Part shown: piece after piece, positions 21,001 to 24,000 of the stretch
Numbering within the stretch: the stretch's first letter is position 1
How the letters are laid out: the number at the start of each line of letters is the position of its first letter
Assembly (NCBI RefSeq): GCF_963676685.1
Contig: NC_092344.1
Location: 74,152,001 to 74,216,000, forward strand
Length of the DNA: 64,000 bases
Direction: 5' to 3'
Source: Mytilus edulis
Taxonomy: Eukaryota
Program-made: the position numbers

Positions 21001-24000
21001 AACCCAACCATAGAACAGACGACAGCAGAAGGTCACCAACAGGTCTTCAATGCAGCGAGAAATTCCCGCTACCGGAGGCGTCCATCAGCTGGCCCTAAAC
21101 AAATTCATATACTAGTTTAGTGATAATGAACGCCATACTAAACTCCAGTACTCAAGTCGTTTTCCAGGGCATCTATCACCTCTGTCCCTGTTGATGAAAC
21201 CAGTGCAGGGAATGAGTATTGGCTGCCTGATATTCGTTGCTTGTTCTGTATTCCATTTCTTAATTTTCTGCAATTTGATCGATGTTAGCAAATGGAACTG
21301 TGAATGTATAAGTACAAAGCCACGTCATGTATATATATTAAAGAAACATAAAAGGGCATATAGACAAAGCACGAAGCAAAAATGAAAGACAAGCATACAA
21401 ACATGTTTTACAAAAGTGCAATAACAATATGTATAGGTACCTCAAGTATCTTCATCATAATTTAAACAAACAAATATTTAACAAAGATGCACAAAAATGG
21501 CATATATCAAATTTAACAACCTCATTCATTACTTTCTTATTTCTGAATTTAATTTGTGTATGTCAAATCCACCATTTAACGATGGAATATTTTTAAGTAC
21601 TGGGACTGAATGGTTAGATTAACATAAACTTTGACGTAGAATCGCGCATATGAAGTCCGAATGTAAACGTCACACAGGTAGAGATGTACATAATTTTGAC
21701 GTTCAAAGTATGTAAAGAATATAGTTTGTTGCTCTGTTAGGTATATCCTCTGCAGCATGTAAATTAGAAGTTTACATTTCCTCCTTGTCGCTCCTCTATA
21801 TGCTCATTGTGTATTTCTTCTTTAAAAAAAGAAAGAGCCACCTCCATATATGTATACAAGAAACACAAAAGGGCATATAAACAAAGCATTAGCAAATATG
21901 AAAGACCAGAATACAAACACAATATAATATAACAATAACACTATAGCGGGATGTTTTTAAGTACAGAGCAACGTCATAAGTATCAAACAAACACAAAAAG
22001 TCACATAATTAAAACAAAAATGAAAGATAATACAATCAACACAATGACGGGATGCATAAGTACAGACCCACGTAATATGGCTATCATCAAAAACAGACCA
22101 AACAGTAAAAGTAATATTGATCAAGACAAATATAAGAGCTCTTAAACACGTTATTAAGATGAGAAACAATTTCAGTACGCAGAATCTATTTCACAATACC
22201 ATCGTGTATTATTTGCAGTTGATACGGAATATTTACCAACAAGGTATATATGATAAAAGATATATGACTTCAATTTATTTTTTTCGTCATGACTTCATTA
22301 CGGTTTTGGCCTATGATATTTTTGCGGACACTAATTTTTTTATTTTAAAGAATCAAGAAATAATAGTATTCTTTCCCCGTCATAGCATTTGTTCTTGAAA
22401 ATGGTATTACAATTTGCAAATTGGCCACACCACAGTTTAATTTGAATTGAGGCGAATTGGATAATGCGACTTGTTCAATTCAAATGTGATTCGATTTAAA
22501 GAAGAGTCTGTAAACCAGATATGCGAATTCAGTTTGAATGAAATATAGTTTTAAAAAATAATTCATATGAAAGTATGAAATAAAAGGTGCAAAACTACAT
22601 AATGTGAGCAAGATTTTTAATTTTGAAGTTTCACAAACTCTGTCTACTGAATGTATACCACACACTTTCGAAAGTGGCGAGATTAGAGAGTCGTAAGAAA
22701 GGTTAGATTAGAAATTCGCAAGAACGGTAATATTGGAGAGTCGTAAGAAAGGTGAAATGAGAGAATTGTAAGAAATAAAGGCAACAGTAGTATGCTGCTA
22801 TTCAAAGTTCATAAATCGTTGGAGAGATAGAAATCCAAGCTACACTTAAAAACCGAGGAAAACACATAAACTATAAGAGGAAATCGACGAAAAGAACAAA
22901 CGCACTGAAGTGCAACAAAAAAAAACCGACAATGCAACAAACACAGACACGAACTCTAAGATAACAACTGAAACGCGAGATTAGAGAGTCCTAAGAAACG
23001 GGAGATGAGAGAGTCGTAAGAAACGTGAGTTGAGAGAGTCGTAAGAACCGTGAGTTAAGAGAGTCCTAAGAAACTTGAGATAAGAGGGTCCTAGAAAACG
23101 TGAGATGAGAGAGTCGTAAGAAAGGTAGGATGAGAGATTCGTAAGAAACATGATATAAGAAAGTCGTAAGAAACGTGAGATGAGAGAGTCGTATGAAACA
23201 TGAGATGAGAGAGTCGTATGAAACGTAAGATGAGATAGTCGTAAAAACGGTCAGATATATACTGTAAACCAACTTATTTTTCGTGAGTAGAAAATAAACG
23301 CGAAAAAAATCGTCGCGAATATGTAAATCTTGGCGCTTACCTTATTAATTAAAATCAACGGTACTAATTTTGTTGCACCAGATGCGCATTTCGACAAAAC
23401 ATGTCTCTTCAGTGATGCTCGTGGCCAAAATATTTGAAATCCAAAGCTTATATAAAAGATGAAGAGCTATAATCCAAAAGGTCCAAAAAAATATAGTCAA
23501 ATTCGTGAAAGGAATCAGAGCTTTGCATGAGGGAGATACATTCCTTAATTTATAATAATTTCTAATATTTTGTAACAGCAAATTTTAATAACACAAACAA
23601 TCCGTATTTTCATGCCAGTACCGAAGTACTGGCTACTGGGCTGGTGATACCCTCGGGGACTAATAGTCTACCAGCAGAGGCATCGACCCAGTGTTATTAA
23701 ACTACATCCAGACAATTAGTAAATTGCGAATTTAAATAGCGGCTAAGTGAACTAAAAAGAGAAGAATGCAAAATTAAGTATCCGCGAAAATAAGTTGGTT
23801 TTCTGTAGTCATCAGAATGATAAGATTAAATGACAATACATAAGAAATTTGGTAACATGACACGTATAGTTAATAGTATTGAGATTTTAAAGACTTTAGT
23901 GTAAAAGCAAACCAAATACGCCATTATATTACAACTGAGATATATTTTTGTGGATTGATTAATGTTATAGAATCTATGAATCTACCTAAAACTGCTGTTG

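What the first reader, a model, noticed from the sequence alone, without database searches (positions are those of the whole stretch)
23342..23700. Permuted retrozyme monomer with TSD and two built-in empty-site controls points to a circular RNA template
Seen: a 345-bp insertion flanked by TTATTAA; sister array units show the empty site. The hammerhead cleavage site lies inside the copy, ~30 nt from its 3' end, so the copy is circularly permuted relative to a cleavage-to-cleavage monomer. Established: metazoan non-LTR retrozymes with minimal type I hammerheads, including Mytilus ones, accumulate as circRNAs (Cervera and de la Pena 2020). Inference: reverse transcription ran about once around a ligated circle or an uncleaved multimer, primed at an AT-rich target.
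Basis: partly seen in the sequence, partly recalled or inferred. Interest (0 to 1): 0.65.

Follow-up and report, generated by a model that had tools for sequence, protein, structure and literature searches.

The report
Single-unit mussel hammerhead retrozyme insertion
A 345-base copy of a known mussel mobile element carrying a self-cutting RNA motif jumped into one of three sister repeats; its ends show where copying began but not whether the RNA template was a circle.

Summary
Window 23349-23693 is a 345-bp insertion flanked by TTATTAA (23342-23348, 23694-23700). Sister array units 2 and 3 each carry one TTATTAA and no insert. A type I hammerhead lies on the minus strand, and its cut site is 32 nt from the copy's 3' end. 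The host is a Mytilus species, so this is a copy of the mussel non-LTR retrozymes published in 2020.

The permutation is not peculiar to this copy. All four copies of its family in the window end 31-32 nt past the cut and differ only at their 5' ends (66, 107, 328 and 345 nt). Three of the four have 5-7 bp A/T-only duplications. Four copies of a related family end 41-53 nt past the cut.

This is target-primed reverse transcription from a fixed start site just downstream of the ribozyme. It matches the internal initiation shown in vitro for a Penelope-like element in 2024. The template had to be continuous across the cut site. Circle and uncut concatemer both fit and cannot be separated with this window. 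This is an ordinary member of a known element class, with modest mechanistic interest.

The parts
23342..23348 (.). Left copy of the 7-bp target-site duplication, TTATTAA. On the window + strand its 3' end is the inferred primer for first-strand cDNA.
23349..23693 (-). Copy A: the 345-bp retrozyme insertion. RNA sense is the minus strand (5' end at 23693, 3' end at 23349). GC is 37.1%.
23375..23418 (-). Type I hammerhead. Helix I is 23418-23413 with 23380-23375. Core CUGAAGA is 23412-23406. The helix II hairpin is 23405-23393, GAA is 23392-23390, and helix III (AUGCGCAU) is 23389-23382. C17 is at 23381, and the cut falls between 23381 and 23380.
23349..23380 (-). The 32-nt tail between the cut site and the 3' end of the copy. 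Its 3' end is the inferred reverse-transcription start.
23694..23700 (.). Right copy of the target-site duplication, TTATTAA.
26604..26610 (.). Empty site in array unit 2: a single TTATTAA.
29620..29626 (.). Empty site in array unit 3: a single TTATTAA.
7899..8226 (-). Copy B, same family, 86% identical to A. It has the same 3' end (31-nt tail), and its 5' end is 17 nt short of A's. The duplication is TTGTT(A). The hammerhead is slightly degenerate.
9827..9933 (-). Copy C, same family, 98% identical to A. It is 107 nt long with the same 3' end (31-nt tail) and an intact hammerhead. The duplication is TTAGATA.
19884..19949 (+). Copy D, same family, 94% identical to A. It is 66 nt long with the same 3' end (31-nt tail). 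No clear duplication was found.
4359..4773 (+). Copy E, related family (about 68% identical to A), period 367. Its layout is a 48-nt tail, a full unit, an intact hammerhead (cut between 4723 and 4724), then a 50-nt tail, which is 1.13 units. The two tails are identical at 48 of 48 positions. The 5' end is 3 nt past a cut-site position. No duplication was found.
35142..35561 (-). Copy F, related family, period 360, about 1.17 units. It starts inside the 3' half of an upstream hammerhead. It then runs through a tail, a full unit, a hammerhead and a tail of about 41 nt. Boundaries are approximate.
18449..18547 (+). Copy I, related family, 5'-truncated. Its hammerhead carries an internal deletion. 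The tail is 48-53 nt. A possible 6-bp duplication is CAAAAT.
6393..6443 (-). Copy J, related family, tail only (51 nt). It starts within about 2 nt of the cut-site position and ends at the usual 3' end.

Best explanation
Copy A is a solo, unit-length copy of a Mytilus non-LTR retrozyme. This is a non-coding, SINE-like retroposon that carries a type I hammerhead.

Shown directly:
- It inserted into TTATTAA in unit 1 of a young three-unit array and made a 7-bp duplication.
- Its 3' end is the family's constant 3' end, 31-32 nt downstream of the hammerhead cut.
- Sibling copies share that end and are 5'-truncated to different lengths.

Inferred mechanism: target-primed reverse transcription. A nick after ...TTATTAA-3' on the window's + strand gave the primer. 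cDNA synthesis began at a fixed site in the RNA just 3' of the ribozyme. It ran through the uncut (or religated) hammerhead site and stopped after almost exactly one unit. A second nick 7 nt away gave the duplication.

The fixed start a short way past the hammerhead, the 5' truncations, the A/T-only and sometimes absent duplications, and the partial tandems (copies E and F) match the insertion signature of Penelope-like elements. Their reverse transcriptase initiates internally on the RNA. A Penelope-like element acting in trans is therefore the most likely engine.

The 'permutation' relative to a cut-to-cut monomer follows from where reverse transcription starts. It does not by itself tell the template's topology. 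The template was continuous across the cut site, so it was either a circle or an incompletely processed concatemer. This window cannot decide between them.
For: Insertion, duplication and two empty sites.

Hammerhead:
- Motif scan: 4 found against 0.02 in shuffles.
- RF00163 at 31.2 bits, E 1.3e-6.
- Covariation on 8 copies: 92.3% of cells paired and 4 doubly changed pairs.

Constant 3' end:
- Family A tails are 32, 31, 31 and 31 nt, with lengths of 345, 328, 107 and 66 nt.
- If starts were random on a 345-nt circle, three further copies within 1 nt would have a chance of about (3/345)^3. That figure is my own arithmetic.
- Related-family tails are 50, about 41, 48-53 and about 50 nt.
- 0 of 8 readable 3' ends lie at the cut.

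Duplications at zero offset: TTAATAA, TTGTT(A) and TTAGATA. CAAAAT is possible for copy I.

Partial tandems E and F.

Non-coding: the only frame of 75 aa or more in the copy has no early ATG and no Pfam hit.

Host: Mytilus. A NAIF1-like ORF is 90% identical to a M. edulis protein.

Literature:
- Mussel retrozymes have about 5000 hammerheads in two ribozyme families, repeats of about 350-390 bp and abundant circRNA. Penelope-like elements are named as candidate mobilisers (PMC7229834).
- A Penelope-like element's reverse transcriptase starts at fixed internal sites 111-118 nt into the ORF. The hammerhead cut is 26 nt into that ORF. It cuts AT-rich DNA and uses unprocessed RNA (PMC11167929).
- Penelope-like insertions show 5' truncation, partial tandems and a 30-40 bp tail (PMC8557442).
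- Their duplications are 8-10 bp or absent (PMC3846280).
Against: - No reverse transcriptase or GIY-YIG domain was found in any of the 76 stop-to-stop frames of 75 aa or more in the window. The partner is unidentified, and a stringent LINE that recognises the 3' tail would leave the same footprint.
- The start sites here are 31-53 nt past the cut. In the one Penelope-like element studied in vitro they are about 85-92 nt past it.
- No inverted 5'-truncated neighbour copy, a frequent Penelope-like feature, lies beside any copy.
- 3 of 8 copies (D, E, J) show no duplication. F's flanks were read only by eye, and nothing clear was seen.
- The sample is 8 copies from one 64-kb window. Boundaries were read from alignments and are good to about 3 nt.
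- That initiation is 'internal' (RNA continuing past the start site) is not shown for family A. It rests on the tandem junctions in E and F.
- The Rfam score is just under the curated cut-off.
Confidence: 0.75

Rival explanations
1. Circular RNA template. A cut-and-ligated monomer circle was primed at the fixed site. Reverse transcription made one lap and stopped when it met its own start.
For: - Copy A is 345 nt. Its 5' end (CACTGGG...) lies 2 nt (by E) or 5 nt (by F) from the base that follows the start site in the tandem junctions. A stop just short of one lap is what a circle with little strand displacement predicts.
- Chance for a random 5' end to fall in such a 6-nt window is about 2%. 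That is my own arithmetic, on a single post-hoc case.
- Circles are the main retrozyme RNA in mussel tissues (PMC7229834).
- Internal initiation needs no free RNA 3' end (PMC11167929).
Against: - Copies E (1.13 units) and F (1.17 units) run past the start site, so there is no firm block there.
- E and J start within about 3 nt of the cut, as expected for run-off on linear self-cleaved RNA.
- The family A junction is inferred from a family only about 68% identical.
- The in vitro Penelope-like system preferred unprocessed RNA.
- The predicted fold of the circle is no more stable than shuffles (-73.9 kcal/mol, z -0.81).
Confidence: 0.38
2. Linear concatemer template. A read-through transcript of a tandem or partial-tandem locus was left uncut at one or more hammerheads. 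It was copied from the fixed internal start site and 5'-truncated, or run off at a self-cleaved 5' end.
For: - Copy E has exactly the layout of a dimer cut at its first hammerhead and uncut at its second: 5' end 3 nt past the cut, then tail, unit, hammerhead, tail.
- Copy J is a run-off on a cleaved RNA.
- Copy F crosses two cut sites.
- The mussel hammerhead cleaves slowly (kobs about 0.1 per min).
- The Penelope-like protein in vitro used unprocessed multi-copy RNA, and ribozyme mutants did not affect insertion.
Against: - It gives no reason for A's 5' end to fall at the unit junction.
- In the passages read, the blots are described as showing circular and monomeric linear forms.
- Flanking sequence carried in from a read-through transcript was not seen in any of the 8 copies.
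Confidence: 0.38
3. Linear cut-to-cut monomers with end-to-end template jumping. Reverse transcription starts at the fixed site and runs 31-50 nt to the cleaved 5' end. It then jumps to the 3' end of another monomer.
For: It predicts tail-only copies (J), and copies that begin at the cut and carry a terminal tail repeat (E). E's two tails are identical at 48 of 48 positions.
Against: - It requires a jump in 7 of the 8 copies, yet only one tail-only copy was found.
- No further tail-only copy of family A turned up at up to 3 mismatches.
- The junction at the cut site is seamless in every copy that crosses it.
Confidence: 0.1
4. A unit-length linear SINE-type transcript with its own promoter and terminator. 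Its natural ends would be CACTGGG... and ...GATTTTA, and the hammerhead would play no part in transposition.
For: - A's ends coincide with the unit junction.
- The 3' end carries a run of four T.
- The first 80 nt or so are the best conserved part between families.
Against: - ARAGORN finds no tRNA-like head, and Rfam finds no small-RNA head.
- E and F run across the supposed ends.
- E and J start at the hammerhead cut.
- The review states that no promoter is seen in retrozymes (PMC7761336).
Confidence: 0.08
5. Not an insertion: units 2 and 3 lost the segment, or it arrived by a DNA-level event.
For: None beyond the bare presence/absence pattern.
Against: - It would need two precise losses, each leaving one TTATTAA.
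- Units 1 and 2 are the closest pair.
- There are no terminal inverted repeats.
- Sibling copies elsewhere have their own duplications and 5' truncations.
Confidence: 0.01

Closest known systems
Mytilus galloprovincialis non-LTR retrozymes (Cervera and de la Pena 2020, PMC7229834)
   Same: - The host is Mytilus.
- The hammerhead is type I with helix I of 6 bp, helix II of 4 bp, and a short helix III with a palindromic loop.
- Two similar ribozyme types are present in the window: CUGAAGAG... and CUGAUGAG... .
- Units are 345, 360 and 367 bp, against about 350-390 bp published.
- GC is low (37%).
- There is no LTR, PBS or PPT and no coding capacity.
- The duplication is longer than 4 bp.
   Different: - This copy is solo, not tandem, so it cannot itself release a cut-to-cut monomer.
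- Its 345 bp is just under the stated usual range.
- A constant 3' end 31-32 nt past the cut, with 5'-truncated siblings, is not mentioned in the parts I read.
Penelope-like elements and their pseudo-LTR / tail insertion signature (PMC11167929, PMC8557442, PMC3846280, PMC4209133)
   Same: - The hammerhead lies near the terminus.
- Reverse transcription starts at a fixed site a short way downstream of the ribozyme cut.
- Copies show 5' truncation.
- Partial tandems occur, with a truncated upstream copy (E, F).
- Targets are A/T, and duplications are short, variable or absent.
- Pseudo-LTR sequences alone can be mobilised in trans.
   Different: - There is no ORF, and no Penelope-like element is in the window.
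- No sequence link to a Mytilus pseudo-LTR was shown.
- The start site is 31-53 nt past the cut, against about 85-92 nt in the element studied.
- No inverted neighbour copies are present.
- The hammerhead has a real, short helix III, unlike the minimal variants typical of Penelope-like elements.
Plant LTR retrozymes (PMC4918200; seen in search listing only, details as summarised in PMC7761336)
   Same: They are non-autonomous retroelements with hammerheads, and circRNA is proposed as the transposition intermediate.
   Different: Plant elements have type III hammerheads inside LTRs, a tRNA-Met primer binding site, a polypurine tract, 4-bp duplications and Gypsy-type mobilisation. None of these is seen here.
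LINE-dependent SINEs
   Same: They are short and non-coding, with a constant 3' end, 5' truncation and target duplications.
   Different: - There is no poly(A) or microsatellite tail.
- There is no tRNA, 5S or 7SL head.
- A self-cleaving ribozyme lies 31 nt from the 3' end.
- Copies longer than one unit exist.

Membership tests
Hammerhead ribozyme, type I (Rfam RF00163) | Conserved core C3-U4-G5-A6-N7-G8-A9, G12-A13-A14, the A15.1-U16.1 pair, and H17 before the cut | tested here: met
   All positions are present at 23412-23381(-). The Rfam alignment covers model positions 1-45.
Hammerhead ribozyme, type I (Rfam RF00163) | Three helices around the core, with helix I open, supported by covariation | tested here: met
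   13 pairs, with 92.3% of cells paired on 8 copies. Four pairs change on both sides. Slid controls give 14-53%.
Hammerhead ribozyme, type I (Rfam RF00163) | Score at or above Rfam's gathering cut-off (34 bits) | tested here: not met
   31.2 bits for copy A and 32.5 bits for copy E. There were no matches in the gathering run. The E-values of 1e-6 to 1e-7 apply to short searches only.
Hammerhead ribozyme, type I (Rfam RF00163) | Self-cleavage | not testable with these tools
   This needs an in vitro transcription assay. A cloned mussel repeat cleaved at about 0.1 per min (PMC7229834).
Metazoan non-LTR retrozyme | Type I hammerhead inside a non-coding repeat of 150-450 bp with GC below 50%, and no LTR, PBS or PPT | tested here: met
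   The copy is 345 bp with GC 37.1%. It has no coding frame with a start codon and no Pfam hit. The only flanking direct repeat is the 7-bp duplication. No formal scan for PBS or PPT motifs was run.
Metazoan non-LTR retrozyme | Head-to-tail tandem copies (dimers to multimers) | tested here: not met
   Copy A is a single unit. The longest copies in the window are 1.13 and 1.17 units (E, F). Monomeric copies are reported for vertebrate retrozymes (bioRxiv 10.64898/2026.07.22.740005).
Metazoan non-LTR retrozyme | Target-site duplication longer than 4 bp, when present | tested here: met
   7 bp, verified against two empty sites.
Metazoan non-LTR retrozyme | Expressed as monomeric circular RNA | not testable with these tools
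   No RNA data are available here.
Non-autonomous derivative of a Penelope-like element | Sequence similarity to the pseudo-LTR or 5' ORF region of an autonomous Penelope-like element in the same genome | not testable with these tools
   No RT or GIY-YIG frame among 76 of 76 frames of 75 aa or more. No mussel genome is available in the collections offered.
Non-autonomous derivative of a Penelope-like element | Fixed reverse-transcription start downstream of the hammerhead, 5' truncation and partial tandems | tested here: met
   Tails are 31, 31, 31 and 32 nt in family A, and 41-53 nt in the related family. Family A lengths are 66-345 nt. E and F are partial tandems.
Non-autonomous derivative of a Penelope-like element | Adjacent inverted 5'-truncated copy | tested here: not met
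   No inverted partner lies next to any copy. The feature is frequent in these elements but not obligatory.
tRNA/5S/7SL-derived SINE | Small-RNA-derived head with an internal Pol III promoter | tested here: not met
   ARAGORN finds 0 genes. Rfam gathering finds 0 matches.

The most novel reading that the evidence does not exclude
The copies in this window are genomic footprints of Penelope-type internal initiation acting on retrozyme RNA in a mollusc. Copy A is a one-lap cDNA of a circular RNA: started at a fixed site 31-32 nt past the hammerhead cut, and stopped 2-5 nt short of its own start. If a genome-wide survey showed a sharp excess of such one-lap copies, it would be the first direct genomic evidence that an animal circRNA serves as a template for target-primed reverse transcription. 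The shared tail would also point to the autonomous partner.
Probability: 0.3. Interest if true: 0.6.

Novelty: already known. Interest (0 to 1): 0.3.

Why it matters
How animal retrozymes move is still open. The 2020 papers propose a circRNA template copied by an unknown non-LTR or Penelope-like enzyme, and state that no conserved motif points to the partner. The 2026 preprint links retrozymes to Penelope-like elements in vertebrates only, and leaves invertebrates and the mechanism untested.

A copy with a verified empty site fixes the exact target, the duplication and both ends. Together with its siblings, it shows a constant start site just past the ribozyme. That gives a concrete, countable test. 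The distribution of 3' ends, 5' ends and copy lengths across a mussel genome could separate circle, concatemer and template-jump models. The shared tail is the sequence to look for in candidate autonomous partners.

As a single locus, it is an ordinary copy of a published, abundant family.

Tried and rejected
- **Rfam.** At gathering thresholds on the whole window it gave 0 matches. An E-value run on 551 nt gave only a chance frnS hit. The hammerhead appeared only in 91-141-nt searches.
- **My covariance model of the hammerhead.** It recovered its 8 training sites plus copies I and K. It also gave one weak hit at 39333-39387(-), E 0.05. On reading, that hit has no hammerhead core, so I dropped it as chance.
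- **Circular fold of the cut-to-cut monomer.** The energy is -73.9 kcal/mol with z -0.81 against 100 shuffles. This copy therefore gives no support for an unusually self-paired circle.
- **A hairpin at the start site.** The tails of 10 copies or tail instances fold differently and weakly, so no conserved hairpin is claimed.
- **A Pol III reading.** It was based on a B-box-like GGGTCGATGCC near the 5' end (consensus recalled from memory) and a T-run at the 3' end. ARAGORN found nothing, and the block varies at the key positions between families. I kept it only as a minor rival.
- **Search for the partner.** 76 of 76 frames of 75 aa or more carry no RT or GIY-YIG domain.
- **Duplications.** None was found for D, E or J. 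F's flanks were read by eye only, with nothing clear.
- **Tail-only copies of family A.** None was found at up to 3 mismatches.
- **Copy E's left boundary.** I asked whether it was an artefact. It abuts the 3' end of another repeat family at 4358|4359. No retrozyme remainder lies upstream of that repeat, so I kept 4359 as E's 5' end.
- **Not done.** The supplements of PMC7229834 (ribozyme families, cloned circRNAs, life-cycle model) were not opened. They may hold the family consensus and junctions that would settle whether A is exactly one unit.
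Full report
**What is there.** The window has no N. Positions 23349-23693 are a 345-bp segment bounded by TTATTAA at 23342-23348 and 23694-23700. It sits in the first unit of a three-unit tandem array of about 3 kb: 22953-25710, 25700-28680 and 28669-31637. Units 2 and 3 have the same flanks with one TTATTAA and no insert, at 26604-26610 and 29620-29626. Over the roughly 2 kb 3' of the site, units 1 and 2 are 93.3% identical, 1 and 3 are 87.0%, and 2 and 3 are 90.0%. 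The insertion is therefore younger than the last duplication. The flanks are no more AT-rich than the window (67-70% against 67.5%). Only the 7-bp target itself is pure A/T.

**The hammerhead.** The ribozyme is on the minus strand. It reads GCAUCA (helix I), CUGAAGA, a 4-bp helix II hairpin, GAA, helix III AUGCGCAU, C17, then UGGUGC (helix I). The cut falls between 23381 and 23380.
- A strict motif scan finds 4 such ribozymes in the window, against 0.02 on average (largest 1) in 50 shuffles.
- Rfam missed it at gathering thresholds and in a 551-nt E-value run.
- In a 91-nt run, Hammerhead_1 (RF00163) matches 23375-23418(-) end to end at 31.2 bits, E 1.3e-6. That is just under the 34-bit cut-off. 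A related copy scores 32.5 bits.
- On 8 aligned copies, 92.3% of pair cells are standard pairs, against 14-53% when partners are slid. Four pairs change on both sides between the two ribozyme types.
- The architecture is the 'canonical metazoan type I' form: helix I of 6 bp, helix II of 4 bp, and a short helix III with a small palindromic loop (PMC4209133, passages).

**Host and family.** A Myb/SANT (NAIF1-like) frame in the array is 90% identical to a Mytilus edulis protein and 84% identical to a M. coruscus one. Cervera and de la Pena 2020 describe the mussel elements (PMC7229834; abstract, passages and Discussion read). They report about 5000 type I hammerheads in M. galloprovincialis, in two similar ribozyme families. 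These lie within repeats of about 350-390 bp and are expressed mostly as circRNA. The window holds two ribozyme types (CUGAAGAG... and CUGAUGAG...). Its units are 345 bp (copy A), 360 bp (F) and 367 bp (E).

**The sibling copies change the reading.** BLAST of the insert, and of a related copy, against the window finds more copies.

*Family A:*

| Copy | Position | Length | Identity to A |
|---|---|---|---|
| A | 23349-23693(-) | 345 nt | - |
| B | 7899-8226(-) | 328 nt | 86% |
| C | 9827-9933(-) | 107 nt | 98% |
| D | 19884-19949(+) | 66 nt | 94% |

- All four end at the same base...GTTGATTTTA or close variants. Copy A has one extra A. The tails past the cut are 32, 31, 31 and 31 nt, and only the 5' ends differ.
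- A, B and C have duplications exactly at the boundaries: TTAATAA, TTGTT(A) and TTAGATA in RNA sense. D has none.

*Related family (about 68% identical to A):*
- E (4359-4773, +) consists of a 48-nt tail, a full unit, a hammerhead and a 50-nt tail.
- F (about 35142-35561, -) consists of the last 20 nt or so of a hammerhead, a tail, a full unit, a hammerhead and a tail of about 41 nt.
- I (18449-18547, +) is 5'-truncated, with a tail of 48-53 nt.
- J (6393-6443, -) is a tail alone.

*Counts across both families:*
- 8 of 8 readable 3' ends lie 31-53 nt past the cut, and none lies at the cut.
- 7 of 8 copies cross an intact cut site.
- 2 of 8 (E and J) begin within about 3 nt of the cut.

Three further sites (G, H, K) belong to a different, longer repeat and were left out of these counts (see below).

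**Mechanism.** A constant 3' end, ragged 5' ends and short duplications are the marks of target-primed reverse transcription. For copy A, the primer was the + strand end ...TTATTAA-3'. The first bases copied are the complement of the tail's end, with no overlap between primer and element. The start site is a family constant just 3' of the ribozyme.

This matches what Frangieh et al. 2024 found for a purified Penelope-like element (PMC11167929; main text read):
- It cuts AT-rich DNA.
- Reverse transcription starts at fixed sites inside the RNA, 111-118 nt into the ORF. The hammerhead cut is 26 nt into that ORF.
- There is no homology between the start site and the target.
- Unprocessed multi-copy RNA is the main substrate.
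- Ribozyme mutants have no effect on insertion.

Other features of Penelope-like insertions also fit. They show frequent 5' truncation, partial tandems and a 30-40-bp tail (PMC8557442, passages). Their duplications are 8-10 bp or absent (PMC3846280, passages). Penelope-like elements were proposed as retrozyme mobilisers in 2020. A 2026 preprint relates vertebrate retrozymes to pseudo-LTRs of these elements, and notes that monomeric copies are common (bioRxiv 10.64898/2026.07.22.740005; abstract and sections 12, 14, 16).

The window itself holds no partner. None of the 76 frames of 75 aa or more has an RT or GIY-YIG domain.

**Circle or not.** The permutation follows from the start site, so it cannot by itself point to a circle. 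What it does show is that the template was intact at the cut site.

Points favouring a circle:
- In E and F, the base after the start site is followed by (A)C-CAC..GTCGATGCC. Copy A begins at that CAC, 2-5 nt from the junction. A is therefore almost exactly one lap. That is what a circle predicts if the enzyme stops on meeting its own start.
- Circles dominate mussel retrozyme RNA.

Points favouring linear RNA:
- E looks like a dimer cut at its first ribozyme only.
- J is a run-off on cleaved RNA.
- E and F run past the start site.
- The in vitro data favour unprocessed RNA.

E's two tails are identical at 48 of 48 positions, which fits either model. I put the circle and the concatemer at about equal odds. 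I put monomers with template jumps, and a self-transcribed unit-length RNA, well below both.

**Checks that gave nothing.** The circular fold of A's monomer is not unusually stable (z -0.81). No conserved hairpin marks the start site. No tRNA-like head is present. The one frame of 75 aa or more in the insert has no early start codon and no Pfam match.

**Novelty.** The element class, its presence in Mytilus, its duplications, monomeric copies, the circRNA-template model and the link to Penelope-like elements are all in print. My three literature searches were: retrozymes + hammerhead + Mytilus (5 papers); Penelope-like / hammerhead ribozyme / pLTR (45 papers, 12 listed); and non-LTR retrozymes + Penelope from 2021 on (2 papers). 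In these searches and the parts I read, I did not find a statement that mollusc retrozyme copies share a fixed 3' end 31-53 nt past the cut with 5'-truncated siblings. Supplements and unlisted papers may hold one. The locus is an ordinary copy. Its small added value is a clean footprint and a countable test.

**Left unchecked.** The genome-wide distribution of ends, the family A tandem junction and the partner element all remain open.

Noticed in passing
window 22953-31637: A three-unit tandem array of about 3 kb. Each unit carries a minus-strand frame with a Myb/SANT-like DNA-binding domain (Myb_DNA-bind_5). Examples are 25224-25598 and 31149-31514, and a further one lies at 34645-35007. The best named relatives are Mytilus NAIF1-like proteins.
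   Followed up: partly
window 22680-22775, 22970-23249, 25717-25845, 28686-28798: A 25-bp minisatellite (GAAACGTGAGATGAGAGAGTCGTAA) sits at the head of each array unit. It has expanded to 11.2 copies, plus a second block of 3.8, in unit 1. Units 2 and 3 have 5.2 and 4.5 copies.
   Followed up: no
window about 25875-26536 and the matching part of unit 3: A segment of about 660 bp is present in units 2 and 3 but missing from unit 1. The gap lies about 70 bp from the retrozyme target. The segment includes a 36-bp tandem repeat (29008-29130). By parsimony it is a deletion in unit 1, with no evident link to the insertion.
   Followed up: partly
window 23263-23283 and 23783-23806: The target lies inside a segment of about 200 bp bounded by inverted arms of about 20 bp (...AAACCAACTTATTTT...), so the host looks like a MITE. 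In units 2 and 3 the left arm is separated from the rest by the 660-bp segment.
   Followed up: partly
window 3562-4358(+), 1997-2764(+), 263-748(-), 32594-32872(-), 22778-22890(-), 45544-45657(+): A repeat family of about 800 bp. Its 5' part derives from the retrozyme (about positions 150-407 of copy E, with a decayed hammerhead at 3757-3808, 2194-2245 and 1646-1674). Its 3' part is unrelated and ends in ...CTGTTGCCTTTATTT. This looks like a composite SINE-like element that captured a retrozyme piece. Copy E abuts its 3' end at 4358|4359.
   Followed up: partly
window 23665-23693(-) and the matching starts of copies E (about 4408-4440) and F: The first 30 nt or so of the unit (CACTGGGTCGATGCC.CTGCTGGT.GA) are much better conserved between the two families than the unit as a whole (about 68%). 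The block sits right after the inferred reverse-transcription start. Its role is unknown. A resemblance to a Pol III B box is recalled from memory and weak.
   Followed up: partly
window 50243-50482(-) and 52520-52810(-): Two frames match the C-terminal part of the G-protein alpha subunit (PF00503, E 5.5e-17 and 3.2e-23). They are probably exons of a host gene.
   Followed up: no
window 37494-37757(+): A weak, sub-threshold match to a Mutator-like transposase (PF20700, E 3.7e-4, 20 bits against a cut-off of 26.5).
   Followed up: no
window 1-20000: Retrozyme-related pieces are dense here. At least 11 copies or fragments of the two families and the composite repeat lie in the 64-kb window, and most of them are in the first 20 kb.
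   Followed up: partly
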